From Escherichia phage MRostami-2023e, in the sequence record OQ031495: a DNA stretch of 64,000 nucleotides; one strand, written 5' to 3'. Shown one piece after another: positions 1-15,439 of the stretch. Numbering within the stretch: the stretch's first letter is position 1; each line of letters starts with the position of its first letter. The notes beneath the pieces are model-generated. The model was not told the origin of the DNA and did not search any database. It worked only from the letters and a program-made list of their open reading frames with translations. Made by a program: the position numbers and the translations under genes.

Positions 1-2214
1 ATGATTATTGAAACGGCTAAAGAAACGATTATTGGTTCAGGCGGTAAGAGCACAGCATTCACTATTCAAGGCAATAGTAAAGTTTATAAGATTTTGTCTA
101 ATGACCTTTATACAAACAAAGAATTGGCTTGTGTACGTGAATTAATCACAAACTGTATCGATGGACAAATTCTTAATGGTTGCACTGATAAGTTTATTGT
201 TCAGGCTCCAGGTCGTTTAGACCCGCGTTTTGTAGTTCGAGACTTTGGTCCTGGTATGAGTGATTTCACCATTCGAGGTAATGACGAAGAGCCAGGAATC
301 TATAACTCATATTTTGCTTCAACTAAAACATCGAGTAACGATTTCATTGGTGGATTCGGACTCGGCTCTAAAGCTCCACTAGCATATACCGATACGTTTA
401 ACCTTACGTCTTATCACAACGGTGAAGTTCGTGGTTACGTAATCTACCAAGATGACAGCGGTCCACAGATTAAGCCAACCTTCGTAGATAAGATGGGTCC
501 TGATGACCGAACCGGCGTTGAAGTAGTTGTGCCTGTTAACCCAGAAGATTTTGAAAAGTTCGCATCCGAAATTGCTTATGTTATGCGTCCTCTCGGCGAT
601 ATTGCAGAAGTTCGGGGAGTTAAAGATATTAAATACTTTCCTGAATTTGACGATGTATATTTGGCCAAGGAAGCTCCATGGGGTGAACGTGGTAATATCA
701 TGGCTGTTTATGGTGGTATTGTATATCCAATCGGAAGTGTTATTAAAGAACAAACATGGATGATGACGCGATGCACTACAGCTTATATTAAATTCCCTAT
801 GGGTGAACTAGATGTAGCCCCGTCTCGTGAAGCATTGTCATTTGATAAACGTACAGTAGCAAATATCCATAAACGCGTTGCAGAAATCGATGCTAAATTG
901 TTCGCTGAAGATTCTAAGAAATGGATTGATTGTAAATACCCACGTCATGTGTTCCGTGAAATTGATTCTCTTGGTTATACCGCTCGTAAATACATGGAAA
1001 AAGCCGGGTCTAATATTGAATCACTGAAATACTCTAAAGAACAACTAACTTATTCCGAGTTGTACAAACGTTTTAAAATGGGGCCCGAATGGTGTAATCT
1101 TGGCGTCGTATACGATATCGTTGAATCCCCACGTCTTCGGCGTATTCGTGAAAATGGTAGCTCATCTGCAACTATTTCAATTAACAGTCTGATTGGCATT
1201 AACATTAAAAACGTTGAAATTGTTATTGATGACGTTAAGGGACGTGTTCCATTAATGCGAGCTCTTAANNNNNNNNNNNNNNNNNNNNNNNNNNNNNNNN
1301 NNNNNNNNNNNNNNNNNNNNNNNNNNNNNNNNAGCGTACTATTCGTTGACCCTACAGACGAAGATGCAATGAAACTTCTGGAACGCCTTAAAGTTATCTT
1401 TGATGGCGACAACATTAACATGTACAAGACTTCAGAGCTTTTACAAATCGTTAAGCCGTGGATTGAAGTCAAGACTCGTTCTAATGGGCCTCGTCCTAAA
1501 TCCCCAAGTGCTCATCGGTTCTTTAAGAATGAAAACGATGTTTGGGTATCGGAAGATCTCTTTATTCCAGCGAGTGAAGCTGATGAAATCCAAGGTTATG
1601 CTATAGTTCGTAATCGTTCTAATGCTGAATGTCTTGACGCAGATAAAGGTTGGTTGAACTATGACTCCAATTTCTTGGCCCGTATTGCTGATTTGTCAGG
1701 TATTAAAGAGTTCACTGTAGTCCGTCCACAGATTGCTAAGAAAGTTCGTAAACTTGGTGAAGTAGAATGCTTGTTCGAAAAATCAATTAACGACTATATT
1801 ACGCTAATTGATAAAGTGGATTATGATGAGTATGTATCACCAAGTCGTAGAGCACAGCCTTATTTGAATCATATTACTCGTAACGAAGAGCTTAACTTCC
1901 TTAGTAAGTATTTTAGCTCTAAGAACAAAGAAATCAGTAAAGATTTTGCAAAACTCTCCACAGTAAATAATCGCTGGGGATGGAATCGATTCGCAGGTGC
2001 TACTAATACAGACCTGAATAAGAAGTTAGAATTGTGTGCTAAAATTTTCGATAAGCTTAAAGATAATGCTTACGATAATGATGATAAAATGGTTATTGAA
2101 TTCGAAACCAATTATCATATTGTGTCAGAATACATGGGACGACGTGGTACTCTTTCTAAAGAACAGGTCGCTCAAATCGTTAAATTCATGAAGGCCGTGG
2201 AAGCGGCCAAATAA
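1..2214 (+). CDS. rIIA: rIIA protein (membrane-associated; lysis inhibition / Rex exclusion sensitivity)
   Basis: 737-aa ORF starting at window base 1; N-terminus MIIETAKETI.. and length match T4 rIIA; rIIB follows; 64-nt N block inside keeps frame. Confidence 0.93.
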   Translation: MIIETAKETIIGSGGKSTAFTIQGNSKVYKILSNDLYTNKELACVRELITNCIDGQILNGCTDKFIVQAPGRLDPRFVVRDFGPGMSDFTIRGNDEEPGIYNSYFASTKTSSNDFIGGFGLGSKAPLAYTDTFNLTSYHNGEVRGYVIYQDDSGPQIKPTFVDKMGPDDRTGVEVVVPVNPEDFEKFASEIAYVMRPLGDIAEVRGVKDIKYFPEFDDVYLAKEAPWGERGNIMAVYGGIVYPIGSVIKEQTWMMTRCTTAYIKFPMGELDVAPSREALSFDKRTVANIHKRVAEIDAKLFAEDSKKWIDCKYPRHVFREIDSLGYTARKYMEKAGSNIESLKYSKEQLTYSELYKRFKMGPEWCNLGVVYDIVESPRLRRIRENGSSSATISINSLIGINIKNVEIVIDDVKGRVPLMRALXXXXXXXXXXXXXXXXXXXXXXSVLFVDPTDEDAMKLLERLKVIFDGDNINMYKTSELLQIVKPWIEVKTRSNGPRPKSPSAHRFFKNENDVWVSEDLFIPASEADEIQGYAIVRNRSNAECLDADKGWLNYDSNFLARIADLSGIKEFTVVRPQIAKKVRKLGEVECLFEKSINDYITLIDKVDYDEYVSPSRRAQPYLNHITRNEELNFLSKYFSSKNKEISKDFAKLSTVNNRWGWNRFAGATNTDLNKKLELCAKIFDKLKDNAYDNDDKMVIEFETNYHIVSEYMGRRGTLSKEQVAQIVKFMKAVEAAK

Positions 2215-2223
2215 GGAAACATT

Positions 2224-3160
2224 ATGTACAATATCAAATGCTTGTCCCAAGAAGAACAGTTAGAAGCTTACGACCTGGTCAAATCAGGCAAATGGACTCG
2301 TAAAGAAATTGCCGATTACTTCGACATTTCAACAGATACTCTTCGTAAGATTGTTAAGAATTTTAAAGCTGAAGGAGAAAGCAGCTGAATTTGAAGACGA
2401 AGAACAGGTCCCAGAAAATGATGAACCTATTATTACCGGCCATCGTCCTGAAATCGTATGGAACGCGTCATCTAAATTTATTTCAATTATTGAAGGACGC
2501 GTAGCATACAATGCGACTCCATCAAGTCATGCAAATTTTGAAGAAATTAAAGCTAATCTGGTCGCAGGAAACCTTAGTAAAGCTGTCGAACTTATTAACA
2601 TCAAGAAAGCTATTACTAAGTTTGTTGATGGTAATGTTACTATTGAAGGTGGTAGTTTATTTTATCAAGGTATAGAGATTCGTTCAGGGCTGGTTAACCG
2701 TATTATTGATTCCATGGAAAAAGGTGAAGACTTTAAATTCTATCTGCCATTCCTTGAAAACCTGTTAGAAAACCCAAGCGAAAAAGCTGTACAACGTTTA
2801 TTCGACTTCTTGGTTGCAAACGATATTGAAATCACTGAAGATGGGTATTTCTATGCGTGGAAAGTAGTTCGTAAGGACTATTTAGACTGCTATAGTGGTA
2901 CATTTGATAACTCGCCTGGTAAAGTTGTTTCAATGCCTCGTACTCGAGTTAACGACGATGATACTCAAACCTGTTCTCGCGGTCTCCACGTTTGTGCTAA
3001 ATCTTATATTCGCCACTTTGGTTCAAGCTCAGATAAAGTTGTTAAGGTTAAAGTTCATCCACGTGATGTTGTATCCATCCCAGTTGACTATGGTGATGCT
3101 AAGATGCGTACATGTCGTTATGAAGTAATTTCAGACGTTACTGAATTGTTTGCAGAATAA
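2224..3160 (+). CDS. rIIB: rIIB protein, reading frame interrupted by an apparent 1-nt insertion near 2378-2380
   Basis: ATG 2224 gives MYNIKCLSQEEQ.. (rIIB N-terminus) in frame 1, stop at 2388; frame 2 ORF 2309-3160 carries the conserved rIIB C-terminal part; total 937 nt = 312 codons + 1. Confidence 0.85.
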
Positions 3161-3165
3161 TAATT

Positions 3166-3190
3166 GGGGACTTCGGTCCCCTTTTTCTTT
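3166..3190 (+). terminator. intrinsic terminator, GGGGAC-UUCG-GUCCCC hairpin plus T tract
   Basis: ggggacttcggtcccc followed by tttttcttt directly after rIIB stop. Confidence 0.7.
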
Positions 3191-3200
3191 AGGGGTAATT

Positions 3201-3488
3201 ATGATTCATCCATTTGACGTATCAGAATCCAAAATTGCTAATCTTCGTGGTCATCATAAGTGTAAATCAGTTTATTGTGCTAAATTGGTAAAACATCCTG
3301 GCGATGCACACTACGGGTGGTTAGAATGCGACGAAGTTGTTATTGAAATTCCGCCTGTAGATGCAGAATATCTTGAAGAAGGTGACCGCATTTATTTTGG
3401 CGAACTACACATCAGAGGTATCTATGGTAAAGACGAACTTGGGGCTGTTGAGGCTGAAGAGTCTTCCGACATTTATCCTGTCGAATGA
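3201..3488 (+). CDS. hypothetical protein (rIIB-denB intergenic slot)
   Basis: ORF with ATG 3201 after the terminator; the track ORF 3150-3488 would start inside the rIIB stop region. Confidence 0.5.
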   Translation: MIHPFDVSESKIANLRGHHKCKSVYCAKLVKHPGDAHYGWLECDEVVIEIPPVDAEYLEEGDRIYFGELHIRGIYGKDELGAVEAEESSDIYPVE

Positions 3489-3504
3489 GTTTTTGACTAG
3501 CGAA

Positions 3505-3981
3505 ATGAAGGTTAAGATCGCTGATACTGCTCGGTACTCGTTGAAACAAGATCCAGGTCAAATAAAAGAAGACGTTGTTCGACGTTGTAAGGTTGCAGTC
3601 TTTGCAGAGTATGTAGTAGCAAATTGGCTAGACGGATATGTTAATAAAGGTATTGAAGACGTCGAAGACCCGTACACGTATGCATGGGACGTGTTAGCTC
3701 ATCCCAAGTATTGTGGAATTCGTGTAGAAGTCAAGACGCACCAGATAGATTCTAAATGGATTTCGGTTACCACAGGATACAGTGGTGATTATCCTGGTGG
3801 TAATGGAATCAATATAGGGCCCTTCTTGAACCATCGAGTCGCAGATTGCATTATTATATTAGATGTCAAAGAAACCTCACCTGACGTCTTCTCTTATTCT
3901 ATAAAGTTTGTGGGAGACCATGAAGACCTAAAGAAAATCGTCCGCAAGAGCAACTACAGCGGGTGGTATCTTCATCTTTAA
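3505..3981 (+). CDS. denB: endonuclease IV (DenB)
   Basis: MKVKIADTARYSL..CKVAVFAEYVVANWL..KVEVKTHQIDSKWISVTTGYSGDYPGG matches T4 DenB as I recall it; position between rIIB and ndd. Confidence 0.85.
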   Translation: MKVKIADTARYSLKQDPGQIKEDVVRRCKVAVFAEYVVANWLDGYVNKGIEDVEDPYTYAWDVLAHPKYCGIRVEVKTHQIDSKWISVTTGYSGDYPGGNGINIGPFLNHRVADCIIILDVKETSPDVFSYSIKFVGDHEDLKKIVRKSNYSGWYLHL

Positions 3982-3993
3982 TTTCATAAAAGT

Positions 3994-4029
3994 GTTTACA
4001 ACTAAGTAGGACTATGATATAGTAGTCCT
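3994..4029 (+). promoter_or_regulatory. early promoter (GTTTAC -35, TG-extended TATAGT -10) with palindrome TAGGACTA/TAGTCCTA around the -10
   Basis: gtttac 3994-3999, tgatatagt 4015-4023, inverted repeat 4006-4013 / 4022-4029. Confidence 0.6.
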
Positions 4030-4049
4030 ATCTAAAAGAGGATAACATC

Positions 4050-4313
4050 ATGAAATTTAAATTTTTCTACGCAAAACATAAAGTAACAGGCGAATTTGTT
4101 TCAATGTACAACACTGCAGATGACGAAGGGATGATTTACACCCATTTGGGTCTATCTCATTGGGACTCAGACGTGCCTTATATGTCATCTGAAGCCGAAA
4201 TAACTCGTTTAGTTAACGGGCATATGAACGACCATTTTGGTGTTATTCTTTCTAAAGACCTTAAAGAGGTTATCAATAAAGGATATATGGAACTCGCGGA
4301 AGTTGAGATATGA
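4050..4313 (+). CDS. hypothetical early protein
   Basis: 87-aa ORF with RBS, downstream of early promoter. Confidence 0.55.
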   Translation: MKFKFFYAKHKVTGEFVSMYNTADDEGMIYTHLGLSHWDSDVPYMSSEAEITRLVNGHMNDHFGVILSKDLKEVINKGYMELAEVEI

Positions 4314-4396
4314 GCTCTAAAATGTGGATCGGAATATGGTTGCTTAGTATCCCAATGATTTGTATAATATTTTCAATTGTGTTGAGGTACTTATGA
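4310..4396 (+). CDS. small hydrophobic peptide (28 aa), putative
   Basis: MSSKMWIGIWLLSIPMICIIFSIVLRYL; ATGA start/stop overlap with the upstream ORF; below the 60-aa track cutoff. Confidence 0.3.
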   Translation: MSSKMWIGIWLLSIPMICIIFSIVLRYL

Positions 4397-4503
4397 AAAA
4401 TGCACTTCTTATTGTACTAAGAACAATTTGTGATACTGGTTTTTACATTGCATGTTCGTTCACTGGAACATGGTTGGCTTTAACATATTTTAATGTAATT
4501 TAA
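4393..4503 (+). CDS. small hydrophobic peptide (36 aa), putative
   Basis: MKNALLIVLRTICDTGFYIACSFTGTWLALTYFNVI; ATGA overlap with the previous small ORF. Confidence 0.3.
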   Translation: MKNALLIVLRTICDTGFYIACSFTGTWLALTYFNVI

Positions 4504-4505
4504 TT

Positions 4506-4544
4506 GTTTACATCACGGTAGGATTATGGTATAGTAGTCCTATC
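4506..4544 (+). promoter_or_regulatory. early promoter with imperfect palindrome around the -10
   Basis: gtttac 4506-4511; taggattatggtatagtagtcctatc. Confidence 0.55.
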
Positions 4545-4563
4545 AAAACACAAGGAACACAAA

Positions 4564-4764
4564 ATGGCTAAGCTTTTTAAAGATGTTGAAATTGGTGAAA
4601 AATTTGTTCTGAATAATGGTCAGCAGCTTATTCGTGTAGCTTCTATCGCCGGACAAACTCATAACTGTATCGCCCCAACGTGTTGGACTCGATTCTTTAT
4701 TGAAGATGACACTGAATGTTTAACTGTTGAAGAGCTTTTTGAACGTTCTGATATAGCCGAATAA
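4564..4764 (+). CDS. hypothetical early protein
   Basis: 66-aa ORF with AAGGAA RBS downstream of promoter. Confidence 0.55.
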   Translation: MAKLFKDVEIGEKFVLNNGQQLIRVASIAGQTHNCIAPTCWTRFFIEDDTECLTVEELFERSDIAE

Positions 4765-4767
4765 AAT

Positions 4768-4802
4768 TGTACAAACTCTTGAGAGCAGAGTATAATGCTC
4801 TC
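4768..4802 (+). promoter_or_regulatory. early promoter (TTGTAC -35, TATAAT -10) with palindrome GAGAGCA/TGCTCTC flanking the -10
   Basis: ttgtacaaactcttgagagcagagtataatgctctc. Confidence 0.55.
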
Positions 4803-4840
4803 ATGGATTACAAAAACATTAATCAATTGAGGAAATTAGC

Positions 4841-5287
4841 ATGTCCAAATATTTAACTCGTAAAGACCTTCTGACAGTTGGTGGTGAAGTTGTTGCAGTA
4901 GTTCGTAATGGCGAATACGGTTCTGAAGTTTCTAAAGAGTTTCGTTCTCGTGAAGGTTTTTACTTCTTCGTTAAAGGTTCATCTGATTGGCGACAAGTAG
5001 CAGCACGATTCTTTGTAGGACGTCAACGTTCTAAACAAGGGTTGGATGCAATTCTTTCTCATATTCGTCAAGGCCGTTCGCAACTAGCCCGTACTATGGG
5101 CACTAACAATATTGAATATGATGTAATCTTTGTTGCAGCTAAGAACATGAAACCACTGACTACTGGTTATGGTAAAGGACAATTGACTCTGGCATTCACT
5201 CGCAACCATACATCAGAGTATCAAACACTCACTGAAATGAACCGTCTTCTGGCAGATAATTTCAAATTCATTCTGCAGAGTTACTAA
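4841..5287 (+). CDS. ndd: nucleoid disruption protein Ndd
   Basis: 148 aa; ..[59 protein letters not shown] matches T4 Ndd. Confidence 0.9.
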
Positions 5288-5339
5288 TTTATACGGGCCT
5301 AGCTTAATAGGCCTTTAATTTATTTTTGAGGTAATTAAA

Positions 5340-5486
5340 ATGGTAGCATGGATTATTGCATTGCTGTGTTGGTCGTTTTTATTCGTTAACACTTTAGTTA
5401 CAGGTGAAACAACAGTATTTCAACAGGCCGTATCACAAGGTACCTTAGCGGTCTTAGCTCTTCTTAACGTATTAAAAGGCGAGTAA
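5340..5486 (+). CDS. small membrane protein (48 aa), in the ac / 52.1 position
   Basis: MVAWIIALLCWSFLFVNTLVTG..; hydrophobic; between ndd and gene 52. Confidence 0.4.
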   Translation: MVAWIIALLCWSFLFVNTLVTGETTVFQQAVSQGTLAVLALLNVLKGE

Positions 5487-5626
5487 TGATTAAGAAAATC
5501 TTAGCAGGAGCCTTCGGGCTCTTGTTGTTGCTTACGGTTCTGTACTATGGTGTGATGTTTGGACTAATCCAAGTAGTGCTTTTCATTTCAGATGTTATAA
5601 TGGCTATTCGTTCATTAATATGGTGA
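5486..5626 (+). CDS. small membrane protein (46 aa)
   Basis: MIKKILAGAFGLLLLLTVLYYGVMFGLIQVVLFISDVIMAIRSLIW; TAATG overlap with the previous ORF. Confidence 0.4.
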   Translation: MIKKILAGAFGLLLLLTVLYYGVMFGLIQVVLFISDVIMAIRSLIW

Positions 5627-5630
5627 AAAT

Positions 5631-6956
5631 ATGCAATTGAATTCTCGTAATCTAAAAAGTATTATTGATAACGAAGCCTTAGCATATGCGATGTACACCG
5701 TTGAAAACCGTGCAATCCCAAACATGATTGATGGATTTAAGCCGGTTCAACGTTTTGTGGTTCATCGTGCGTTAGATTTGGCTCGTGGTAATAAAGAAAA
5801 ATTTCATAAACTTGCGTCAATTGCAGGTGGTGTTGCAGATTTAGGTTATCACCATGGTGAATCTTCTGCACAAGATGCAGGTGCATTGATGGCTAACACG
5901 TGGAACAACAACTATCCACTGTTAGATGGCCAAGGCAACTTTGGTTCTAGAACAGTCCAAAAAGCTGCAGCATCTCGTTATATTTTTGCTCGTGTAAGTA
6001 AAAATTTCTATAACGTATATAAAGATACTGAATATGCTCCAGCTCATGAAGATAAAGAACACATTCCACCAAAATTCTATCTTCCTATTATTCCGACAGT
6101 TCTTTTGAATGGTGTTTCTGGTATTGCAACCGGTTACGCAACAAATATTCTGCCTCATAGTTTTAAATCGGTAAAAAAGGCCGTATTACAAGCTCTTCAA
6201 GGTAAAAATGTCACTAAGCCAAAAGTTGAATTCCCGGAATTCCGTGGTGAAGTACATGAAGTTGATGGGCGTTATGAGATTCACGGAACATATAAGTTCA
6301 CATCTCGCACTCAAATGCAGATAACTGAAATCCCATATAAATTCGACCGTGAAACGTATGTGAGTAAGGTTCTTGACCCGTTGGAAGACAAAGGTCTAAT
6401 CTCTTGGGAAGATGATTGTGGTGAACACGGCTTTGGGTTTAAGGTGAAGTTCCGTAAAGAGTACTCGCTTCCTGATGATGAAGAGCTACGTCATGAAAAA
6501 ATCATGAAAGATTTTAGTCTCATCGAACGTCGTTCACAAAACATCACAGTGATTAATGAAAAGGGTAAATTAGCTGTCTACGATAACGTAGTGGACTTAA
6601 TCAAAGATTTTGTTGAAGTCCGTAAGACTTACGTTCAGAAACGTATTGACAACAAAATCCTTGAATCTGAAAAAGCATTTAAACTGGCTTTTGCTAAGGC
6701 ACACTTCATCAAAAAAGTTATTACAGGTGAAATTGTGATTCAGGGCAAGACTCGTAAAGCTTTGACTGAAGAGCTAGCACAAATCGAAATGTATAAAGAA
6801 CATGTCGATAAACTGGTAGGTCTTAACATCTTCCATATCACTTCCGACGAAGCACGTAAACTAGCAGAAGAAGCTAAAGCTAAGAAAGAAGAAAATGAGT
6901 ATTGGAAGTCTACTGATGTTGTGACCGAGTACACTAAAGACTTGGAGGCACTTTGA
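5631..6956 (+). CDS. 52: DNA topoisomerase II medium subunit gp52
   Basis: 441 aa; AYAMYTVENRAIPNMIDGFKPVQRF (GyrA-type N-terminal domain); matches T4 gp52 in length and position. Confidence 0.95.
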   Translation: MQLNSRNLKSIIDNEALAYAMYTVENRAIPNMIDGFKPVQRFVVHRALDLARGNKEKFHKLASIAGGVADLGYHHGESSAQDAGALMANTWNNNYPLLDGQGNFGSRTVQKAAASRYIFARVSKNFYNVYKDTEYAPAHEDKEHIPPKFYLPIIPTVLLNGVSGIATGYATNILPHSFKSVKKAVLQALQGKNVTKPKVEFPEFRGEVHEVDGRYEIHGTYKFTSRTQMQITEIPYKFDRETYVSKVLDPLEDKGLISWEDDCGEHGFGFKVKFRKEYSLPDDEELRHEKIMKDFSLIERRSQNITVINEKGKLAVYDNVVDLIKDFVEVRKTYVQKRIDNKILESEKAFKLAFAKAHFIKKVITGEIVIQGKTRKALTEELAQIEMYKEHVDKLVGLNIFHITSDEARKLAEEAKAKKEENEYWKSTDVVTEYTKDLEAL

Positions 6957-7033
6957 GTGCCCTAGCCTTAGGATTTCTCGGTGCAATAGCTGTACTAGTG
7001 ATTTGGCTGTATTGGTTGGACAAACATGATTAG
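6953..7033 (+). CDS. possible 26-aa hydrophobic peptide with TTG start
   Basis: GGAGG RBS 6944-6948 then TTG; LSALALGFLGAIAVLVIWLYWLDKHD; overlaps the gene 52 stop; speculative. Confidence 0.25.
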   Translation: MSALALGFLGAIAVLVIWLYWLDKHD

Positions 7034-7054
7034 GGAGCTTCGGCTCCCTTTTGT
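7033..7054 (+). terminator. intrinsic terminator, GGGAGC-UUCG-GCUCCC plus T tract
   Basis: gggagcttcggctcccttttgtg after gene 52. Confidence 0.7.
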
Positions 7055-7074
7055 GCATTTTTCTCACAAAACAG

Positions 7075-7105
7075 TTTACTTTTGCTTCAAACATGATAGT
7101 ATAGA
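7075..7105 (+). promoter_or_regulatory. early promoter with embedded MotA-box-like TGCTTCA (possible early/middle hybrid)
   Basis: gtttac 7075-7080; tgcttca 7083-7089; -10 region gatagtataga. Confidence 0.55.
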
Positions 7106-7141
7106 CCTATCAAAACAAAACAACCAAATTGGAGAAATAAA

Positions 7142-7357
7142 ATGTCTAAAATGAAATTAACCCAAAACACAACTACTCGTTTCGGTAAAGTTAAACCTGG
7201 TATGAATGCTCCACGTAAAGCACTTGTTGAAGAATTAAATTTCTTAGAAGTTGAAATCAATTCTTTAGTGGTTCGCGGTTCAAATGGACATCATTTAGAA
7301 AAGCTTCGTTCTAAAAAGGCAAAACTTATTAGCCTTATTAAAGAAATGAGTTTGTAA
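7142..7357 (+). CDS. hypothetical basic early protein
   Basis: 71-aa ORF, GGAGAAATAAAATG RBS/start; MSKMKLTQ.. Confidence 0.55.
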   Translation: MSKMKLTQNTTTRFGKVKPGMNAPRKALVEELNFLEVEINSLVVRGSNGHHLEKLRSKKAKLISLIKEMSL

Positions 7358-7394
7358 ATTTTACCAGGGCTTTTGAAAAAGAGCCCAAAATAAA

Positions 7395-7426
7395 GTTTAC
7401 TTTTGCTTCAAACATGATATTATAGA
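7395..7426 (+). promoter_or_regulatory. early promoter with MotA-box-like TGCTTCA; near-identical copy of the 7075 cassette
   Basis: gtttacttttgcttcaaacatgatattatagacctatcaaaacaaa. Confidence 0.55.
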
Positions 7427-7460
7427 CCTATCAAAACAAATACTAATTTGGAGAAATAAA

Positions 7461-8093
7461 ATGTCTAAAGTTACTTACATCATCAAAGCTTCTGAAAACG
7501 CTCTGAATGAAAAAACTGCTGCAATAATGGTTTATATCATTAAGAACAACTTCACCACTGCTGCCAATGTCCGTGAAGCTCTGGAAGCAGAATACAATGC
7601 ATCGGTTGTTAACTCTAACATTGGTGTATTGATTAAGAAAGGTTTAGTCGAAAAATCCGGTGATGGACTTGTAGCAACAGGCGAAGCAATGGATATTATC
7701 CAAAAAGCTGCAGACCTCTTTGCCCAAGAAAATGCTCCAGAACTTCTTCAGAAACGTAACACTAGAAAAGCACGTGGAGTTACTCCTGAAATGCATGAAT
7801 TAGCAAACTTTGTTTTTGAAAATATTAAAGATAAAGTTGAAGTTAAAGAAATTGGTGAAAACCGTAGTAACTTGGAAGTTCGATTTGCAAAACGAGTTCT
7901 AGGTATTCGTCAGATCGAAATTCGTCGAGATGGTTCTCTTAGAATCTTTGCATACAACATGTCAGAAACTGAATCAAAGCTGTTTACTTCTCTTGAAAAT
8001 GATGTTAAGATTAAGATCGGTGGTAAATATACTTACATTGACTTCCCTAATGTGTCCAAAGAAATCATTACCCTTGTAACTAACGTACTGTGA
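7461..8093 (+). CDS. motA: MotA, activator of middle-mode transcription
   Basis: 210 aa; MSKVTYIIKAS..NSNIGVLIKKGLVEKSGDGL..ENAPELL matches T4 MotA (211 aa). Confidence 0.9.
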   Translation: MSKVTYIIKASENALNEKTAAIMVYIIKNNFTTAANVREALEAEYNASVVNSNIGVLIKKGLVEKSGDGLVATGEAMDIIQKAADLFAQENAPELLQKRNTRKARGVTPEMHELANFVFENIKDKVEVKEIGENRSNLEVRFAKRVLGIRQIEIRRDGSLRIFAYNMSETESKLFTSLENDVKIKIGGKYTYIDFPNVSKEIITLVTNVL

Positions 8094-8103
8094 GGAATAC
8101 ATA

Positions 8104-8448
8104 ATGAATAAGCTGAATATTATTAACGAACTTCGTAAATGTGCAGAACCTACTCAAGAAGGATGGGATATTTGGTACCACGGGGCTTATTTAGGGACAA
8201 TTGTAAAGATTAAAGCAGGCCAATATACGGTTATTCGTGAAAATNNNNNNNNNNNNNNNNNNNNNNNNNNNNNNNNNNNNCGTAAAAACTACATGGCAGC
8301 GATCAGTTCATTTGTTGATGCAGCTTACGAAATCTATAAAGAAGATTATAAAGAATATCAGCAGTCACAACCGGTTATTCGTTCGATTGGTGTAAATAAA
8401 CAAGCACAAAAATCTATTTGGCAACGTATTAAAGGATGGTTTAAATGA
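8104..8448 (+). CDS. hypothetical protein
   Basis: 114-aa ORF containing a 36-nt N block; ATGA overlap with the next ORF. Confidence 0.5.
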
Positions 8449-8906
8449 AAACTTTTAAAGAACGTTTAGCTCTGTTAGATAAAGCTTTGTCGCGTGAGAC
8501 TCCGGAAAGTCTGGCTGCTAAATTAGCTTCTTACGGCGGTGAATATACAGAACAAAATGTTTTAGATGAAGTTCCTGAAATCTGTTGGCAGACTCTGTAT
8601 TGGGATGAAAACCAAAAGTATCAACGACGAATTGTCTGTGCAGCTAATCGTTTTAAATTAAAAGATGGACGAACTCTTATTATTCCAGGTGCTCGTCATT
8701 ACTCTAAAGATATGGCTGAAGTACTTGATATAGTTGGTCCTCAATTAGTCTCGCAGCAAGTTTGTGGCGACGACCAAGGCTTTATTGATCAATACTCTAA
8801 TTACTGGACACGTGAAGAAGCAATGATTATTGCAACTTACGCTGGACAAGTACGTATTGAACGTGGTGGTAATGAAAAAGAACTTTACTCTGAGGATCTT
8901 TACTAA
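8445..8906 (+). CDS. hypothetical protein
   Basis: 153-aa ORF, translationally coupled to neighbours. Confidence 0.55.
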
Positions 8907-9187
8907 TGAATCTTAAACAACTCCAGATTGATGCTATTGAAGCACACATTAATCATATCAAACGCCTGAATGCTATGATGGAAGAAAATTATGGTATGTA
9001 TGCTAATCAGCCTGGTTGGGATGCTTTAGACCATCCTTATTTGGTTAATTTATGTAAAGGTGATACGTTAGCAATTATTCGTGATGGGTTAAAACCTTTC
9101 TTGCGTGACATGTATATTAAAATGAACGAAGAAATTATTAGCTCGTTGCAATATCAATTAAGGAAATTAGATGATGAGAATAATTGA
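8906..9187 (+). CDS. hypothetical protein
   Basis: 93-aa ORF, start overlaps the previous stop. Confidence 0.5.
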   Translation: MNLKQLQIDAIEAHINHIKRLNAMMEENYGMYANQPGWDALDHPYLVNLCKGDTLAIIRDGLKPFLRDMYIKMNEEIISSLQYQLRKLDDENN

Positions 9188-9389
9188 TTCTAAAGCAGAT
9201 TATTTTAATTCTGTTAATGATAAGAATAAAGCTTTAATTCGCCACTTTATTACTGAGATGGGTTATACTGACTCTAAAGATTTGAAAGAGCACATTATCG
9301 AATGTTCTGTGGCTAAAAAGTTTTCTTTCACTAGTAAATGTTTAAACGAGGTTATAAAGCATTATGAACAATCTTGTAGCAAAACATGA
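9171..9389 (+). CDS. hypothetical protein
   Basis: 72-aa ORF. Confidence 0.5.
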   Translation: MMRIIDSKADYFNSVNDKNKALIRHFITEMGYTDSKDLKEHIIECSVAKKFSFTSKCLNEVIKHYEQSCSKT

Positions 9390-9772
9390 TTTCAATAAGG
9401 CTTCCGTCCATAAGGACAAAAAGAAATCAGAACTTCAATCTAAACGTAAACAAAAACATAAGGGTAAAGACTATGCTTACTAAAATCAAAGAAAATCCTG
9501 CCACTGAACTTGTTATTCGATGTGAAGAACTTGCAGAGCTTTATCAGGTTAACCGAGAAGTGTGTCGTAGTGTTATCGTAGATATGGCAGACGAAGTATG
9601 TTCTCGTATTCCTTTTAGTGTTGATTTCAATCACATGAAGCCTGGTGAAATCACTATCGTCTTTGGTTCTGACTATACTGAAGAACGGGCTCTTAATGCC
9701 CTAGAATATGAAATGACATTCTTTGACATACAGGACTACATTGATAGTTATAAGGAACGATATGAGTCATAA
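9386..9772 (+). CDS. hypothetical protein (alternative start at ATG 9472)
   Basis: 128-aa ORF; ATGA overlap at 9386. Confidence 0.5.
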   Translation: MISIRLPSIRTKRNQNFNLNVNKNIRVKTMLTKIKENPATELVIRCEELAELYQVNREVCRSVIVDMADEVCSRIPFSVDFNHMKPGEITIVFGSDYTEERALNALEYEMTFFDIQDYIDSYKERYES

Positions 9773-9923
9773 TCTTCAGAACGTAGTAGAGGCCGAACGT
9801 GAGCGTGAGGCCTTAGTCTATAATGAATTATTAGCTCTGTTCTTAGCCTTACACTCGTACGAACAGGAAGACTATACCAATTACGTTAAAAGCGTAGAAA
9901 AAGCCGTTTACAATCAACACTGA
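9762..9923 (+). CDS. hypothetical small protein
   Basis: ATG 9762 preceded by AAGGAA; the track ORF 9723-9923 starts further upstream in the same frame. Confidence 0.4.
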   Translation: MSHNLQNVVEAEREREALVYNELLALFLALHSYEQEDYTNYVKSVEKAVYNQH

Positions 9924-9969
9924 TAATGGTACTATATCCATATCAACTAAGTGGAATGAATAAAACGTT

Positions 9970-10242
9970 ATGAATAAAGACATTGAAATCGTACGTGAAA
10001 TTATTACTATTGCTTCTATTTTGATTAAATTCTCTAGGGAAGATATTGTTGAAGACCGAGCAAGTTTCATCGGATTCTTGAATGAGATTGGAATTAAAAA
10101 AGATGGTCGGCAGCTAAATCAGAATTCGTTCAGAAAACTAATTACAAATTTAACTGCCGAAGAAAAGAAAACACTGATTAGTGAATTCAATGAAGGTTTT
10201 GAAAATATTTATCGTCATTTAGCGATGTATTCTAACAACTAA
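9970..10242 (+). CDS. hypothetical protein
   Basis: 90-aa ORF; its stop abuts the convergent holin gene. Confidence 0.5.
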   Translation: MNKDIEIVREIITIASILIKFSREDIVEDRASFIGFLNEIGIKKDGRQLNQNSFRKLITNLTAEEKKTLISEFNEGFENIYRHLAMYSNN

Positions 10243-10902
10243 TTATTTAGCCCTTCCTAGTATTCGGACCGCTTGGTTGCATATAGCCGCTAAGCGGTCC
10301 TCCTCAAGTATATTATTCCCCTTATACCAATACATCGTCACAGTTCCAGCATAGATGTTATCCAAATTAAAGTATGGACAACTATACATATAAGAAAGTT
10401 CGGCGGTCTTAGATTTTGTAGGCAAAAATGCAAATTCTGATTTAGATGAGAAATGACGGCCGCTTAAATGAATTATATATTCATCGGCCGTTTTATCCAC
10501 TGGGAATCCGCCAAGGGACTTTTCAGAAATCGTGCTAGGTAGTTTGCCTTCATAAGCTATAAGGTCGACAAAATAATTTAAGTTTTTAGGTCTGAAAGAA
10601 TACACAGCACTAAAATCTGCACCAGATGAGATATGAACTATTTGCAGTTGTTCTAGAGCCGCAGATTCAAAACGTAAAGCTCGTTCTTTTTGGATTATTT
10701 CAGTATAAGTATCATACTTAGCTCTTACATAATAATCCAGTAAAATACTTCCTTTGTACCATATTAGTGCCATTAGGAACAAAAGAATAATTACCGCTAC
10801 TCGGGACATTAAAACCTTTCCAGTAGCGTTATCTTTGAAAATACGATCTAGCAACCCAAATAGAATATCACTAAGCGAAAATGATACTTTTGGTGTTGCC
10901 AT
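10243..10902 (-). CDS. t: holin T (lysis-timing holin with large periplasmic domain)
   Basis: 219 aa; ..SDILFGLLDRIFKDNATGKVLMSRVAVIILLF..YSCPYFNLDNIYAGT..RILGRAK matches T4 T (218 aa). Confidence 0.93.
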   Translation of the reverse strand: MATPKVSFSLSDILFGLLDRIFKDNATGKVLMSRVAVIILLFLMALIWYKGSILLDYYVRAKYDTYTEIIQKERALRFESAALEQLQIVHISSGADFSAVYSFRPKNLNYFVDLIAYEGKLPSTISEKSLGGFPVDKTADEYIIHLSGRHFSSKSEFAFLPTKSKTAELSYMYSCPYFNLDNIYAGTVTMYWYKGNNILEEDRLAAICNQAVRILGRAK

Positions 10903-10911
10903 AATACCTCC

Positions 10912-11463
10912 TTACTTAAAGATATTTATAATCGCTTTGACAATAGATTTGTTTTCAAGGTCCGGGAATTTAGGGAATTCACCGCCAAGATGTTCATGTT
11001 TTTCTAAAAGGGCAAAGAATTTTTTGAGCTCTTTAAATTTTCGTTTTTCTTCTCTATTAGCAACCTCTGCGTCAATAAGAGAACTTAAAACACTGAATAA
11101 TTTATAGAGTTCATGAATTTTCTTATCACGTTGAACTACGCGTTTATATGCTTCATCTTCCTTCCACCCGTCATCGGTCCAAATGTCAAATTCACCAGGT
11201 TCTTCTGTAGTAACATTTTGAAGAGCACCTGGAGTGTCAATAACAATTTTTTGCTTATCATAAGTCCATACTGTTTTTCCACGATGGTCTTCAACATATA
11301 CCCATTCTTGCTCGCGTTCGTCAAATATAACAGCATAGCCTTCTTTAGGGTCTAAAGGTTTTTTTGATGTCGAGTGAGCCGGAAGACCCATACCTTTAAT
11401 CGGTTTGTAATTTTCTTCTTTGTAAAATTCTTTAGTGTCAAAATAATAATGATATATTTTCAT
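10912..11463 (-). CDS. 38: gp38, T4-type tail fibre assembly chaperone
   Basis: 183 aa; MKIYHYYFDTKEFYKEENYKP.. matches T4 gp38; adjacent to gp37. Confidence 0.9.
   Translation of the reverse strand: MKIYHYYFDTKEFYKEENYKPIKGMGLPAHSTSKKPLDPKEGYAVIFDEREQEWVYVEDHRGKTVWTYDKQKIVIDTPGALQNVTTEEPGEFDIWTDDGWKEDEAYKRVVQRDKKIHELYKLFSVLSSLIDAEVANREEKRKFKELKKFFALLEKHEHLGGEFPKFPDLENKSIVKAIINIFK
10923..10930 (-). promoter_or_regulatory. late promoter TATAAATA for t, inside the 3' end of gene 38
   Basis: plus-strand tatttata 21 nt upstream of the t start codon. Confidence 0.55.
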
Positions 11464-11470
11464 ATTTAGA

Positions 11471-11486
11471 AGGGGCCGAAGCCCCT
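11471..11486 (-). other. GC-rich UUCG-loop hairpin between genes 37 and 38, no clear U tract
   Basis: aggggccgaagcccct; possible attenuator or RNA stability/processing element. Confidence 0.4.
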
Positions 11487-11490
11487 CTCC

Positions 11491-14400
11491 TTATGCTAAA
11501 CGAACGATATAGTTAAAAGCAACGTTTTTAACTGTGTTTTCTGTATTACCTGTACTATTTACAGTTATTGTATGTCCATGGGAACCAATTGCAACAGTAT
11601 GAGAATGAGCACCAATACCAACAGTATGAGAATGAGCACCAATACCAACAGTATGAGCATGGTTACCAGTAGCGCTAGTAGTTCCTGACCAACTATGAGT
11701 GTGGGCACCATCTGAAGAAGTTTTGGCCATATTCGACGATGCAGTAGCACCGCTCACGGTTGCAGTGAATTTAGCGTTGCCGTTTGGACCCGCACTATTG
11801 TATCCATCATAGAATATGCTAGTGGGTATGCCGCCTTGTACCTGAGGACCTGAACGCGCGTGTTGGTGCGCACCAGCGGAACTAGTATTACCACTCACTG
11901 TATGGTTATGGTTGCCAGTGGTATTACTGGTCTTAGTACCATAATCAAAGCTTGAAGTCGTTTTGCTACCGTAATCAAAACTAGAAGTGGTCTTAGTACC
12001 CAAATCTGTGTTTGATGCACTTGCACTATGGCTATGTGACTTAACACCGTCTGCTTCTGTACTTAATACAGCACGCCCAGATGGTTTACCCTTAATAGTT
12101 TGCCCACGCATATCAGGAATAGTACCTGTAGGATATGCGATAGCAAGCTTAGGATAAGCTGCGGTATCAAAGGTCTGACCTTCCATTAAAGCAAATCCAG
12201 CAGGAATTGAATCGCTTGGCCATGGAATNNNNNNNNNNNNNNNNNNNNNNNNNNNNNNNNNNNNNNNNNNNNNATTTAATGTGGTATTCAGGTTAGCAAA
12301 GTTTCCTGAACCGCCCGTGATATTACCATCAGTGCCAANNNNNNNNNNNNNNNNNNNNNNNNNNNNNNNNNNNNNNNNNNNNNNNNNNNNNNNNNNNNNN
12401 NNNNNNNNNNNNNNNNNNNNNNNNNNNNNNNNNNNNNNNNNNNNNNNNNNNNNNNNNNNNNNNNNNNNNNNNNNNNNNNNNNNNNNNNNNNNNNNNNNNN
12501 NNNNNNNNNNNNNNNNNNNNNNNNNNNNNNNNNNNNNNNNNNNNNNNNNNNNNNNNNNNNNNNNNNNNNNNNNNNNNNNNNNNNNNNNNNNNNNNNNNNN
12601 NNNNNNNNNNNNNNNNNNNNNNNNNNNNNNNNNNNNNNNNNNNNNNNNNNNNNNNNNNNNNNNNNNNNNNNNNNNTTGTCCTAATTGCATTCTGAAATTA
12701 GGAGCAATACGACTATGACTTGCTAATACAACACGCTTACTGTCATTGTCCACAGTAATCATATTACCGCCAGCGCCATCATCTCCTAACGTAACAGAAT
12801 GGCGCATTTGTACCATACCATTATNNNNNNNNNNNNNNNNNNNNNNNNNNNNNNNNNNNNNNNNNNNNNNNNNNNNNTCTTTAGGAGTCGGGATAATATG
12901 TAATGCTGTTTCTGAACGACGGAAAATAGCACCGTATTCGGCGTTCCAAATTCTCAATGCATTTGCTGTTCCGCCAAATTTAGCTTGTCCATTTACAGAC
13001 AATCCATTATTTGCAACTAAGCTTGATTCGGTTGTAATAGAACCNNNNNNNNNNNNNNNNNNNNNNNNNNNNNNNNNNNNNNNNNNNNNNNNNNNNNNNN
13101 NNNNNNNNNNNNNNNNNNNNNNNNNNNNNNNNNNNNNNNNNNNNNNNNNNNNNNNNNNNNNNNNNNNNNNNNNNNNNNNNNNNNNNNNNNNNNNNNNNNN
13201 NNNNNNNAATGAGTTACCCCATGCCTTAATAATCACATAGTTTTTATTCTGTCCTTCGCGAGTACCACCGTTCCATTGGATAGCTCTTGTTTCATCAACT
13301 TTGCTAGGGGCGCCAAATTTAAGGCCTGCAATATTATTAGAATTATTTAAAAATAATTCATTGTCTAATTTAACAGGTTGGATAGAAGAAATAGTGCCGT
13401 CAGCATAAAACTGTACGTTATTAGAACCAGTTACCAGTTTAAGAATACCTGGGTTAATTTCCATACCTTCCTGTGTATTAATGTTGGTTTGGCCTTTACC
13501 ACGGAAATAATGGGAAAATTTACCGCCAGAATTATATCCAATGTGGGTTTGACCATCACCTGCATTGTTTGTATCAGCCTGGGTTTGAACCGATAAAAGT
13601 GCGGCGTTGGTTCCAGGCATTGTCCAGGTTCCGCCTTGGTCTTCTGAGCGTCCAAATAATGCTTTACGAGTACTACGGAAACTATCAGGAGTAATAGAAG
13701 CAACAGAATTCCAATTACCTACTAAATCATAAACACCCTGCTTAATGTATTTTAAACCAGTGGCAGCATCACCTAAAGCAATATATCTTTCTCCCATTGG
13801 AGTAGGAGAACCATAGTTGTTAGTATTTTCATCAGTGGTAATTGTGCCAATAGCAAGTGAACGACGTAATACCATTGCGCCATCATTACGAAGACCCATT
13901 AATTTAGTAGTAAGTGTATTTCCGGTCCACCAAGAAATTTCATCATTCTTACCAGTTTGAGCTGAAGCGATTTCATGGTAAATAGTTCCGCCTGATTTAG
14001 CGCGAACTTTACGAAGATAGTTTACACCATTTTCTTCGCCTGTTCCAGGATAAACATATTGAACTAATGATTGCGAATCATATTGTCCGAATGCTTTTGT
14101 GTCCAAAACAATGGTTTTCGTATTAACTTGTGGAGCAGAAACTATACCATTGGCAGAGTTAATATTGCCTGATGCAGAAATATTACCTGCGCGGACCTCA
14201 ATACTACCAGAATCTACAATAAAATTACCATTACGGTTAAAGACCCAGTGTTTAGAATTGTCTGGAGCTGTAGAATCAATATAATGAACTCTAAATGAGC
14301 CTTCGCTTACTAGTGTACCTACCGAAAAAGTACCGTCTTTATAACGTTGCTTAATCAAAGGGTGGTATTCTGAAACAGAAGTAGTTGAACTTAAATCTGT

Positions 14401-14733
14401 AAAGATAGGGGCTTTATTCGAATGTTGGTTAGCCCAAGCGCCATTACCAGCTATTTTAGGCAAGAATTCGATATACTTTCCTGCATAAACAAACTGGTTT
14501 CCATTAAGATTATATGAGCCGTTTTGTAAATAATCACCATTTTGAGTTACATTACCGTTAATATCCCCGCCCTTAGCAAAGCCTAGGCTAATAATATTAC
14601 CAAGGTCATCTTTAGTAAAAAGAGTTCGATCTTTTAAGTTTATCGCTAATTCGCCTTCGGCTAATTGTGCTGCAGTAGGATTAACTCCTGCCACTTTGCT
14701 TCTTTTAAATTGTATCTGTTTTAATGTAGCCAT
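11491..14733 (-). CDS. 37: gp37 long tail fibre distal subunit (receptor-binding tip)
   Basis: 1080 aa; N-terminus [13 protein letters not shown]..; C-terminus with HxH repeats ..[34 protein letters not shown]..; four N blocks inside. Confidence 0.93.
11585..11665 (-). repeat. three tandem 27-bp units encoding the repeated HSHTVGIGA / HxH motif of the gp37 tip
   Basis: accaat(t/a)(g/c)caacagtatgaga(a/c)tgagc repeated 3 times. Confidence 0.7.
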
Positions 14734-14741
14734 AAGTCCTC

Positions 14742-15407
14742 TTAATAATAGCCGAAATCTTGAACAGAATCTTTAATTACAATCTGGTCGAAACGAGGAA
14801 CATGATTAGCCTCAGACGCCGGATTCTGTGAGAAAAAGTTTGGTGCTGTTAAAGTACCAGTCATGGTATCGCCTTTACGCAATACACGGGAATTTGCGTT
14901 ATCCGTAACAATATTTATTCGTCCATCAACATAATCTTTTCTTGTGAGATCATTTGCTGCAACCGGAGCAGTAGCGTTAGAACGGACAGGACCAGTTGAA
15001 TAAATACCACCTTTAGTGCTGATATCACCAGTACGAGTGTTAACAACAACAGTTCTACCTGCAGATCCTTGTGATGATTTAAAACCAATGCCATACCATG
15101 AAACAATATCAATATTTGCTGTATCAAAAGTAGCAGCATCGCCATTGCCAGGATAAATACCACTTTGATTTGTGTTATTTACGGCATAAGGTACTTGCAC
15201 ACCATTATTAAATGTTACTCGAGCGGCATACGTACCACCATTTGCTTTAGAAACGAAATCGTTATCAGCCGCTTGTGGTTTATTATATTCTGAATAGAGT
15301 TTAAACGTTTTATACAGGACGTCATCACCTGCTGGCATTAAAGGGAAATTACCTTGATGCCATATAACAGCACCGCCAGTTGTACTACCAGCTTTTAAAT
15401 CGGCCAT
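14742..15407 (-). CDS. 36: gp36 long tail fibre distal connector
   Basis: 221 aa; [29 protein letters not shown].. matches T4 gp36. Confidence 0.92.
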
Positions 15408-15431
15408 AGTTGTCTCCTTATATGTATACCA

Positions 15432-15439
15432 TATTTATA
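15432..15439 (-). promoter_or_regulatory. late promoter TATAAATA for gene 36
   Basis: plus-strand tatttata 25 nt upstream of the gp36 start. Confidence 0.6.

What the first reader, a model, noticed from the sequence alone, without database searches (positions are those of the whole stretch)
2368..2390. rIIB reading frame broken by an apparent single-base insertion
The rIIB N-terminus (MYNIKCLSQEEQ..) is read from ATG 2224 and stops at TGA 2386-2388. The conserved remainder of rIIB is in the +1 frame (ORF 2309-3160). The switch point is the short A run in gaaggagaaagcagct around 2378-2380. Total length is 937 nt, one more than the 936 expected for a 312-codon gene. This is either a genuine frameshift mutation in a classic non-essential gene or a sequencing/assembly error.
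Basis: seen in the sequence. Interest (0 to 1): 0.5.

Follow-up and report, generated by a model that had tools for sequence, protein, structure and literature searches.

The report
One extra G breaks phage rIIB
An RB69-like E. coli phage carries a single extra G that cuts its non-essential anti-defence gene rIIB off after 50 codons; this is an ordinary knock-out allele or a sequencing slip, not a new mechanism.

Summary
The broken rIIB is real in the sequence. ATG 2224 reads 54 codons to TGA 2386-2388, and the rest of the gene (to 3160) is in the +1 frame; the total is 937 nt. Deleting it gives a 311-aa protein 100% identical to RIIB of the nearest relative, phage vB_EQ1. The G is the only single-base indel in about 62 kb comparable with vB_EQ1. 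It is absent from all 152 related phage records and from three other collections. It falls at the end of the N-terminal helix-turn-helix domain, so the conserved core (64 of 67 invariant positions) is not translated. There is no in-frame restart codon before codon 164 and no recoding signal. The site is also the boundary where two natural linker cassettes of Mosigvirus rIIB diverge, and the extra G matches the first base of the other cassette. My best reading is a recent genuine loss-of-function mutation (about 0.55). rIIB is dispensable without RexAB, and null alleles are known to be selected. A consensus or assembly error remains a strong rival (about 0.4), because the window also carries 15 N-runs. 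Reads or Sanger sequencing would settle it. Interest is low.

The parts
1..2214 (+). rIIA (upstream partner gene). It appears intact, with a 64-nt N-run at 1269-1332. The window starts exactly at its ATG.
   Evidence: ORF 1..2214; 100% identical to vB_EQ1 rIIA outside the N-run
2213..2217 (+). Shine-Dalgarno (AAGGA) of rIIB, overlapping the rIIA stop codon TAA 2212-2214
   Evidence: read directly from the sequence; a ribosome-binding site is annotated at the same place in phage 55
2224..2373 (+). rIIB codons 1-50 in the native frame: the complete N-terminal helix-turn-helix domain
   Evidence: Pfam HTH_23 at 30.7 bits for the 54-aa product. The AlphaFold model has helices at 9-21, 26-32 and 37-50 with pLDDT 84-90. 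Foldseek matches to the DeoR and CENP-B DNA-binding domains.
2374..2375 (+). GG where all relatives have a single G. One of these is the inserted base (+1 frameshift in codon 51).
   Evidence: alignments A1 and A4; whole-window diff; all full-length matches among 152 phage records are 80/81 with one gap
2224..2388 (+). The truncated reading frame as it stands: 50 native residues plus GESS, then TGA
2372..2377 (+). AAGGAG, a consensus Shine-Dalgarno-like hexamer created by the insertion. No usable in-frame start codon follows it.
   Evidence: sequence; start-codon scan
2375..2407 (+). Variable acidic linker cassette, 'allele A' type. Its left boundary coincides with the inserted G.
   Evidence: alignment A4: allele A (vB_EQ1, F2) and allele B (G53, ST0, mar005p1; 12 nt longer) diverge immediately after GAAG. 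Model pLDDT is below 50 for residues 53-77.
2375..3160 (+). rIIB codons 51-311 plus stop, now in the +1 frame and not reached by ribosomes that start at 2224. It contains the conserved RIIB core.
   Evidence: 64 of 67 invariant alignment columns lie here. Residues ~100-306 are the part conserved out to Felixounavirus, Vibrio and jumbo phages. Pfam PF26926 Phage_T4_rIIB is recorded on homologues.
3166..3190 (+). Intrinsic terminator after rIIB (GGGGACTTCGGTCCCC followed by a T-run)
   Evidence: a terminator is annotated at the same place in G53 and NRG-P0074

Best explanation
This is the rIIB gene of an RB69-like (Mosigvirus) T-even phage carrying a private duplication of one G in codon 51 (GAA GAG -> GAA GGA G). 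Shown: translation from the normal start yields the 50-residue helix-turn-helix domain plus four wrong residues and stops at TGA 2386. The remaining 261 codons, which hold the whole conserved RIIB core, are out of frame and have no credible restart. As written, the phage is therefore rIIB-null. Inferred: the insertion is a genuine, very recent spontaneous +1 frameshift. It is tolerated because rIIB is dispensable on hosts without RexAB-type exclusion. It may also have been favoured, either by the picking of larger, sharper r-type plaques or by escape from a host defence that senses RIIB. Predicted phenotype: normal growth on ordinary E. coli and failure on lambda-lysogenic or RexAB-expressing hosts.
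For: The insertion is the only difference from vB_EQ1 in block 1333-8244, and the only single-base indel in about 62 kb of comparable sequence. All 286 homopolymers of 5 or more bases in the window agree with vB_EQ1 wherever the two can be compared. The assembly is therefore not indel-prone, and a G -> GG change is not a typical homopolymer error. Removing the G gives a protein 100% identical to vB_EQ1 RIIB, so there has been no secondary decay and the event is recent. There is no in-frame ATG, GTG or TTG between the stop and ATG 2714 (codon 164), and none of the candidates has a Shine-Dalgarno sequence. Loss of function follows because 64 of 67 invariant positions lie downstream. From the literature: knock-down or transposon disruption of rIIA/rIIB does not harm growth without RexAB but does with it, in five genera (PMC11879866; bioRxiv 10.1101/2025.11.20.689424). 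Five of six T6 escapers of a CARD/gasdermin defence were early rIIB frameshifts (PMC10312443). r mutants arise at 1e-3 to 1e-4 and give larger, sharper plaques (PMC6832632). Frameshift alleles of rIIB already sit in public assemblies: P0031, with 24 member sequences, is reproduced exactly by adding one A to the A6 run of T4 rIIB.
Against: No reads are available, so a consensus error cannot be excluded. The window is not a clean finished sequence: it has 15 N-runs, most of them on hypervariable cassettes. The extra G lies exactly at the boundary of a polymorphic linker cassette and equals the first base of the alternative allele. An alignment or merging artefact would produce that pattern, and I estimate a random mutation would land there well under 1% of the time. 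The allele is private: it is absent from 152 related phage records and from the viral, genome and metagenome collections, and its products are not on record. Split rIIB genes are uncommon in deposits (0 of 60 evenly sampled records).
Confidence: 0.55

Rival explanations
1. Sequencing, consensus or assembly artefact. The phage has an intact 311-codon rIIB, and the extra G was introduced when the sequence was built. One route is at the edge of the variable linker cassette, where reads or contigs of two alleles, or a reference carrying the other allele, are merged.
For: The G sits exactly where linker alleles A and B diverge and is identical to allele B's first cassette base; ST0 (allele B) aligns to the window straight through GAAGG. 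The window has 15 N-runs. For 8 of 10 tested, the hidden segment is a cassette where vB_EQ1 is only 27-78% identical to ST0/PNJ-9. The N-run length equals the ST0/PNJ-9-type length to the base (36, 212, 87, 64, 23) while the flanks are 100% vB_EQ1, and the few SNPs cluster at N-run edges. This suggests a consensus built with low-depth masking rather than a finished de novo assembly. The allele occurs nowhere else.
Against: It is the only single-base indel in about 62 kb, and no homopolymer is miscalled. The linker cassette itself is complete, N-free and 100% allele A, and the allele-A-specific T at 2370 is kept. A reference or co-assembled genome with allele B would therefore have contributed only one base, whereas other cassettes of similar size were turned into N. 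The tail-fibre islands at 12274-13044 differ from all four relatives compared, so the window is a genuinely distinct phage. No collinear reference was found (NRG-P0074 was excluded). The N-runs may simply be masking applied to the data.
Confidence: 0.4
2. Functional rescue. The gene is still expressed at a useful level. Ribosomes could shift +1 somewhere in the 2264-2388 overlap of the two frames, helped by the new AAGGAG and the TGA. Alternatively, terminating ribosomes could reinitiate at TTG 2351 or TTG 2309 in the downstream frame. Either route would give an N-terminally altered RIIB that works, because the N-terminal segment of T4 RIIB is classically dispensable (r1589 fusion; from memory, and PMC8594841 describes such a fusion as hypomorphic).
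For: The downstream frame is open from 2264, so a 125-nt overlap exists (read). The insertion creates AAGGAG at 2372-2377, 5 nt before the last sense codon and the TGA. TTG codons in the downstream frame lie 35 and 77 nt upstream of the stop. Many distant RIIB homologues align only from residue ~70-100 onward, so the HTH is not universal.
Against: The arrangement is not conserved: every relative has the plain uninterrupted ORF, so it cannot be an evolved recoding site. There is no slippery codon (AGC before TGA re-pairs poorly in +1; inference). The SD-to-P-site spacing is 5 nt, not the 3 nt of prfB (from memory). Local RNA folding is no better than shuffles (z = -0.54), and there is no Rfam recoding element. 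Neither TTG has a Shine-Dalgarno sequence. At best this route would give a leaky mutant.
Confidence: 0.04

Closest known systems
Classical T4 rIIB frameshift mutants (Crick-Brenner FC series; Benzer's spontaneous rII mutants)
   Same: A single-base insertion in the N-terminal part of rIIB, followed shortly by an out-of-frame stop. The gene is non-essential on ordinary hosts and required on lambda lysogens (PMC11879866; PMC8594841).
   Different: The phage is different (RB69-like Mosigvirus; its RIIB is 66% identical to T4 RIIB). The allele was found in a sequence rather than selected. The phenotype is untested. It does not lie at a T4 hot spot: the T4 A6 runs at nt 253 and 371 do not exist in this gene.
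T6 rIIB early-frameshift escapers of the Lysobacter CARD/gasdermin defence (PMC10312443)
   Same: Early frameshifts in rIIB are viable null alleles. Those escapers show that losing RIIB can be advantageous, and that it costs RexAB resistance.
   Different: Those were selected in the laboratory on a known defence system. Here no selecting host or defence is known, and selection is only inferred.
Phage contingency loci (homopolymer tracts of 6 or more bases that frameshift reversibly; bioRxiv 10.1101/2025.10.21.683753), including the A6 run allele of T4-type rIIB seen as P0031
   Same: A +1 frameshift that switches off an rII gene.
   Different: The site here is a single G becoming GG, not a tract of 6 or more. 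The window's rIIB has no run longer than A5. High-rate reversible switching is therefore not expected.
prfB (RF2)-type programmed +1 frameshifting
   Same: An SD-like hexamer (AAGGAG) shortly upstream of an in-frame UGA, with the productive frame at +1.
   Different: It is not conserved in any relative, has no CUU-U-type slippery codon, has the wrong spacing, and was created by the very insertion it would need to correct.

Membership tests
RIIB (Pfam PF26926 Phage_T4_rIIB; PHROG 609) | Full-length sequence homology to RIIB proteins | tested here: met
   The repaired product hits PHROG 609 at E 1.1e-106 over residues 1-310. It is 100% identical to vB_EQ1 RIIB and 66% identical to T4 RIIB. Homologues carry PF26926.
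RIIB (Pfam PF26926 Phage_T4_rIIB; PHROG 609) | Position immediately downstream of rIIA, with its own SD and followed by a terminator | tested here: met
   rIIA at 1..2214, rIIB ATG at 2224, terminator at 3166-3190. Relatives have the same order.
RIIB (Pfam PF26926 Phage_T4_rIIB; PHROG 609) | One uninterrupted reading frame of about 311 codons | tested here: not met
   The +1 G at 2374/2375 splits it into 2224..2388 and 2309..3160. As written, it is a pseudogene or null allele of the family.
RIIB (Pfam PF26926 Phage_T4_rIIB; PHROG 609) | Function: counteracts RexAB-type exclusion together with RIIA | not testable with these tools
   Needs plating on RexAB-expressing or lambda-lysogenic hosts.
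Programmed ribosomal frameshift / recoding site | The frame break is conserved among relatives | tested here: not met
   None of 152 related records, and none of the 7 relatives aligned base by base, has the break.
Programmed ribosomal frameshift / recoding site | A slippery sequence plus a stimulatory element (correctly spaced SD or a downstream RNA structure) | tested here: not met
   No slippery codon before TGA. AAGGAG is present, but 5 nt from the last sense codon. The fold z-score is -0.54. There is no Rfam match in the gene.
Phage contingency locus (hypermutable simple repeat) | The frameshift lies in a homopolymer or simple repeat of 6 or more bases | tested here: not met
   The site is G -> GG within GAAGAG. 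The longest runs in this rIIB are two A5 runs elsewhere.
Classical rII- mutant (genetic definition) | r plaque type on E. coli B and no growth on K-12(lambda) | not testable with these tools
   Phenotype only. It is predicted from the genotype, not shown.

The most novel reading that the evidence does not exclude
The extra G is real and is not a random slip. It would mark the boundary of a swappable linker cassette (alleles A and B diverge exactly there, and the G is allele B's first base). On this reading, cassette exchange between co-infecting Mosigviruses can misjoin by one base and knock out rIIB. The resulting RIIB-null phage would then persist in nature because it escapes a host defence that senses RIIB (as CARD/gasdermin systems do), at the price of RexAB sensitivity.
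Probability: 0.08. Interest if true: 0.45.

Novelty: new member of a known kind. Interest (0 to 1): 0.15.

Why it matters
If the insertion is real, this isolate is a natural or laboratory-arisen rIIB-null RB69-like phage. That matters in practice. It should be excluded by lambda-type RexAB lysogens and may show rapid-lysis plaques. It may also evade RIIB-sensing defences, so its host range and any therapeutic use would differ from its near-identical relative vB_EQ1. If the insertion is an error, the record needs a one-base correction and the gene should be annotated as intact. In either case no new biology is implied. The finding is mainly a quality and annotation flag on the gene that historically defined frameshift mutations.

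Tried and rejected
(1) Exact 33-mer with the extra G in viral contigs, genome contigs and metagenome contigs: no hit. The wild-type 32-mer is also absent from viral contigs, so that collection gives no denominator.

(2) Exact look-ups of the 54-aa, 283-aa and 269-aa products to trace the source: none is on record.

(3) Recoding: RNA folding of 2350-2450 is no better than shuffles. Rfam gave only a sub-threshold TarB hit on the terminator. Rejected.

(4) Restart codons: none is credible.

(5) Solved structures by sequence: none. By fold, only the HTH matches.

(6) Literature on rIIB reinitiation, r1589 end-points and FC0: the searchable library returned nothing usable. Statements on these rest on memory and are marked as such.

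(7) Hypothesis that the window is a reference-guided consensus whose reference carried linker allele B. The N-run pattern fits. However, NRG-P0074 is not collinear, the tail-fibre islands are unlike all relatives, and the linker itself is not N-masked. This remains unresolved and is neither adopted nor excluded.

(8) Scaffold-gap explanation for the N-runs: rejected, because the lengths match relatives to the base.

(9) Templated origin from the nearby 7-mer TGAAGGA at ~2490: considered and dismissed, since it is expected by chance.

Full report
**What is in the sequence**

The window is part of a T-even-type phage genome of the RB69 group (Mosigvirus). It starts exactly at the ATG of rIIA (1..2214). 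rIIB follows at ATG 2224, behind an AAGGA ribosome-binding site that overlaps the rIIA stop.

- The conserved remainder of rIIB lies in the +1 frame (ORF 2309..3160).
- The span 2224..3160 is 937 nt.
- A hairpin plus T-run terminator follows at 3166-3190.

**Where the extra base is**

Megablast against 50,697 phage records found 193 related records. The best is Escherichia phage vB_EQ1 (PQ516281.1), at 99.9% with 1200 bases against our 1201. rIIB is annotated as a 936-nt gene in vB_EQ1, phage 55 and F2.

- Alignment with four relatives shows GCTGAA-GAGAAAGC in all of them and GCTGAAGGAGAAAGC in the window.
- The inserted base is therefore a G at 2374/2375 in codon 51.
- Deleting G2374 gives a 936-nt ORF whose product is 100% identical to vB_EQ1 RIIB.

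**How unusual it is within this sequence and in public data**

I compared the whole window with vB_EQ1.

- Over 1..40661, the alignable blocks contain two substitutions and one indel, which is this G.
- In block 1333-8244 it is the only difference in 6.9 kb.
- The other length differences are a 5-nt change in a T-run at 60174 and a divergent, repeat-containing patch in the Hoc gene (57.6-58.3 kb).
- The window holds 243 five-base, 38 six-base, 4 seven-base and 1 eight-base homopolymers. None shows a length difference from vB_EQ1 where the two can be compared.
- An 81-nt query centred on the site matched 152 phage records. Every match covering the full query is 80/81 with one gap, so none has the extra G.
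- The exact 33-mer is absent from the viral, genome and metagenome collections, and the broken products are not on record. The allele is private to this sequence.

**What is lost**

Pfam recognises residues ~7-50 as a helix-turn-helix (HTH_23, 30.7 bits on the 54-aa product).

An AlphaFold model of a 94%-identical homologue, built on 24 sequences, gives three parts:
- a three-helix bundle at 9-50 (pLDDT 84-90);
- a disordered linker at 53-77 (pLDDT below 50);
- a folded core at 80-315.

Foldseek against the PDB matches only the HTH (DeoR DNA-binding domain, probability 0.99; CENP-B, 0.98). It finds nothing significant for the core, and sequence search finds no solved relative.

- In the 24-sequence alignment, 64 of 67 invariant columns lie downstream of the break.
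- tblastn shows that residues ~100-306 are the part shared with very distant phages.
- The frameshift therefore leaves an isolated HTH plus GESS and removes the conserved core.
- Downstream in the correct frame, the first ATG, GTG or TTG is ATG 2714 (codon 164), and it has no Shine-Dalgarno sequence. The two TTG codons upstream of the stop (2309, 2351) also lack one.

**Recoding**

- The insertion creates AAGGAG (2372-2377) shortly before the TGA, which superficially recalls the prfB +1 signal.
- The break is absent from every relative.
- There is no slippery codon.
- The region folds no better than shuffled sequence (z = -0.54).
- Rfam finds no recoding element.

At most, this route could make the mutant slightly leaky.

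**An unexpected detail**

Mosigvirus rIIB genes carry one of two linker cassettes:
- Allele A (vB_EQ1, F2 and the window; RB69 gave the same one-gap 80/81 match, which fits allele A) reads GAAG|AGAAAGCAGCTGAATTT...
- Allele B (G53, ST0, mar005p1) reads GAAG|GCGTTGTCCCTGAAGC... and is 12 nt longer.

The two alleles diverge immediately after GAAG. That is exactly where the extra G sits, and the G equals allele B's first base; ST0 aligns with the window straight through GAAGG. The window keeps the allele-A T at 2370 and a perfect allele-A cassette.

I estimate a random insertion in the gene would fall at a cassette edge well under 1% of the time. That figure should be softened because I noticed the coincidence only after looking. 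The coincidence fits either a misjoin at the homology boundary during recombination or a merging/consensus artefact, so it does not discriminate between real and artefactual.

**Quality of the sequence**

The window has 15 N-runs of 8-337 nt.

- They are not scaffold gaps. Several equal the corresponding segment of a relative to the base.
- For 8 of 10 tested, the hidden segment is a hypervariable cassette: vB_EQ1 is 27-78% identical to ST0/PNJ-9 there, against about 95% genome-wide.
- The N-run length follows the ST0/PNJ-9-type layout (36, 212, 87, 64, 23) rather than vB_EQ1's (21, 194, 296, 91, 29).
- The flanks are 100% vB_EQ1, and the few SNPs cluster at N-run edges.
- This looks like low-depth masking in a consensus, or deliberate masking of the data. 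I could not tell which.
- The tail-fibre islands at 12274-13044 differ from all four relatives compared (73-88%). The phage is therefore a genuine distinct mosaic, and I found no collinear reference.

The upshot is that the sequence cannot be treated as a finished assembly.

**Biological context from the literature**

- Knock-down of RIIA/RIIB in five genera, and transposon insertions in T4 rIIA/rIIB, are harmless without RexAB and deleterious with it (PMC11879866; bioRxiv 10.1101/2025.11.20.689424; also PMC8594841).
- Five of six T6 escapers of a CARD/gasdermin defence had early rIIB frameshifts and became RexAB-sensitive (PMC10312443).
- r mutants arise at 1e-3 to 1e-4 and make larger, sharper plaques (PMC6832632).
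- Phage contingency loci are homopolymers of 6 or more bases (bioRxiv 10.1101/2025.10.21.683753). This site is not one, and this rIIB has no run longer than A5.
- Public assemblies already contain rIIB frameshift alleles. P0031 (24 member sequences) is reproduced exactly by adding one A to the A6 run of T4 rIIB. P0002 is a Mosigvirus rIIB with an aberrant C-terminus.
- In an even sample of 60 of 2,178 phage records, rIIB was never split.

**Verdict**

As written, the gene is a null allele of rIIB.

I favour a genuine recent loss-of-function mutation (0.55) for four reasons:
- it is the sole single-base indel in an otherwise near-perfect match;
- it is not in a homopolymer;
- the gene is dispensable on ordinary hosts;
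- null alleles of this gene are known to be selected.

A consensus or assembly artefact is nearly as likely (0.40), given the N-runs, the cassette-edge position and the privacy of the allele. Functional rescue by frameshifting or reinitiation is unlikely (0.04).

This is a new allele of a very well known kind, and its interest is low. Reads, a Sanger amplicon, or plating on a RexAB host would settle it.

Noticed in passing
window 1269-1332, 8245-8280, 12229-13207 (four runs), 23417-23474, 23929-24140, 26133-26222, 26528-26614, 29440-29522, 38317-38380, 40663-40685, 58006-58067, 58267-58274: There are fifteen N-runs. Eight of ten tested cover hypervariable cassettes, and their lengths equal those of ST0/PNJ-9-type phages to the base, while the flanks are 100% vB_EQ1. 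Two (1269-1332 and 26133-26222) lie in conserved sequence. They are not scaffold gaps. Their origin (data masking or low-depth consensus) is unresolved.
   Followed up: partly
window 2375-2407; L009, L010, L011 (G53, ST0, mar005p1): Mosigvirus rIIB exists with two alternative linker cassettes between the HTH and the core. Allele A reads EEKAAEFEDEEQ and allele B reads GVVPEANDASYVIEE (12 nt longer). Judging from the identity bands, the split is roughly 100 versus 50 records. The linker is predicted to be disordered.
   Followed up: partly
window 12229-13207 (distal long tail fibre gene, minus strand): The non-N islands (12274-12338, 12676-12824, 12878-13044) are only 73-88% identical to vB_EQ1, ST0, PNJ-9 and NRG-P0074. 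This phage therefore has its own receptor-binding tail-fibre variant, despite being about 100% identical to vB_EQ1 elsewhere.
   Followed up: partly
P0031 (protein collection); T4 rIIB nt 253-258 in L007: A 231-aa T4-type rIIB gene call with 24 member sequences starts MHLKKFISITV. Adding one A to T4's A6 run reproduces it exactly. A +1 hot-spot frameshift allele of T4-type rIIB is therefore widespread in public assemblies.
   Followed up: yes
L008 (ENA ERZ27296280 k119_281789), gene 282-1157: A Mosigvirus rIIB on a 1.3-kb metagenome contig has an aberrant C-terminus (…VVSRGYWMRC) and an overlapping downstream ORF. This is another broken or chimeric rIIB.
   Followed up: no
window 26528-26614 versus vB_EQ1: vB_EQ1 has 296 nt where the window, ST0 and PNJ-9 have 87 nt. 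This is a ~209-nt insertion in vB_EQ1 between td-region genes.
   Followed up: no
window 57626-58274 (Hoc-like head decoration gene, minus strand): This is a patch of dense substitutions and small compensating indels relative to vB_EQ1, with two N-runs inside it. It probably reflects Ig-like repeat variation, or megablast aligning paralogous repeats.
   Followed up: no
window 60174: There is a 5-nt deletion (TTTTG) relative to vB_EQ1 in a T-rich tract after GTCCC. It is the only other indel in uniquely alignable sequence.
   Followed up: no
RIIB core, residues ~80-311 (window 2462-3157): The conserved RIIB core is confidently modelled (pLDDT 72-95), but Foldseek finds no significant counterpart among solved structures and there is no sequence relative in the PDB. 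The fold of this 70-year-old model gene still appears to be structurally uncharacterised.
   Followed up: partly
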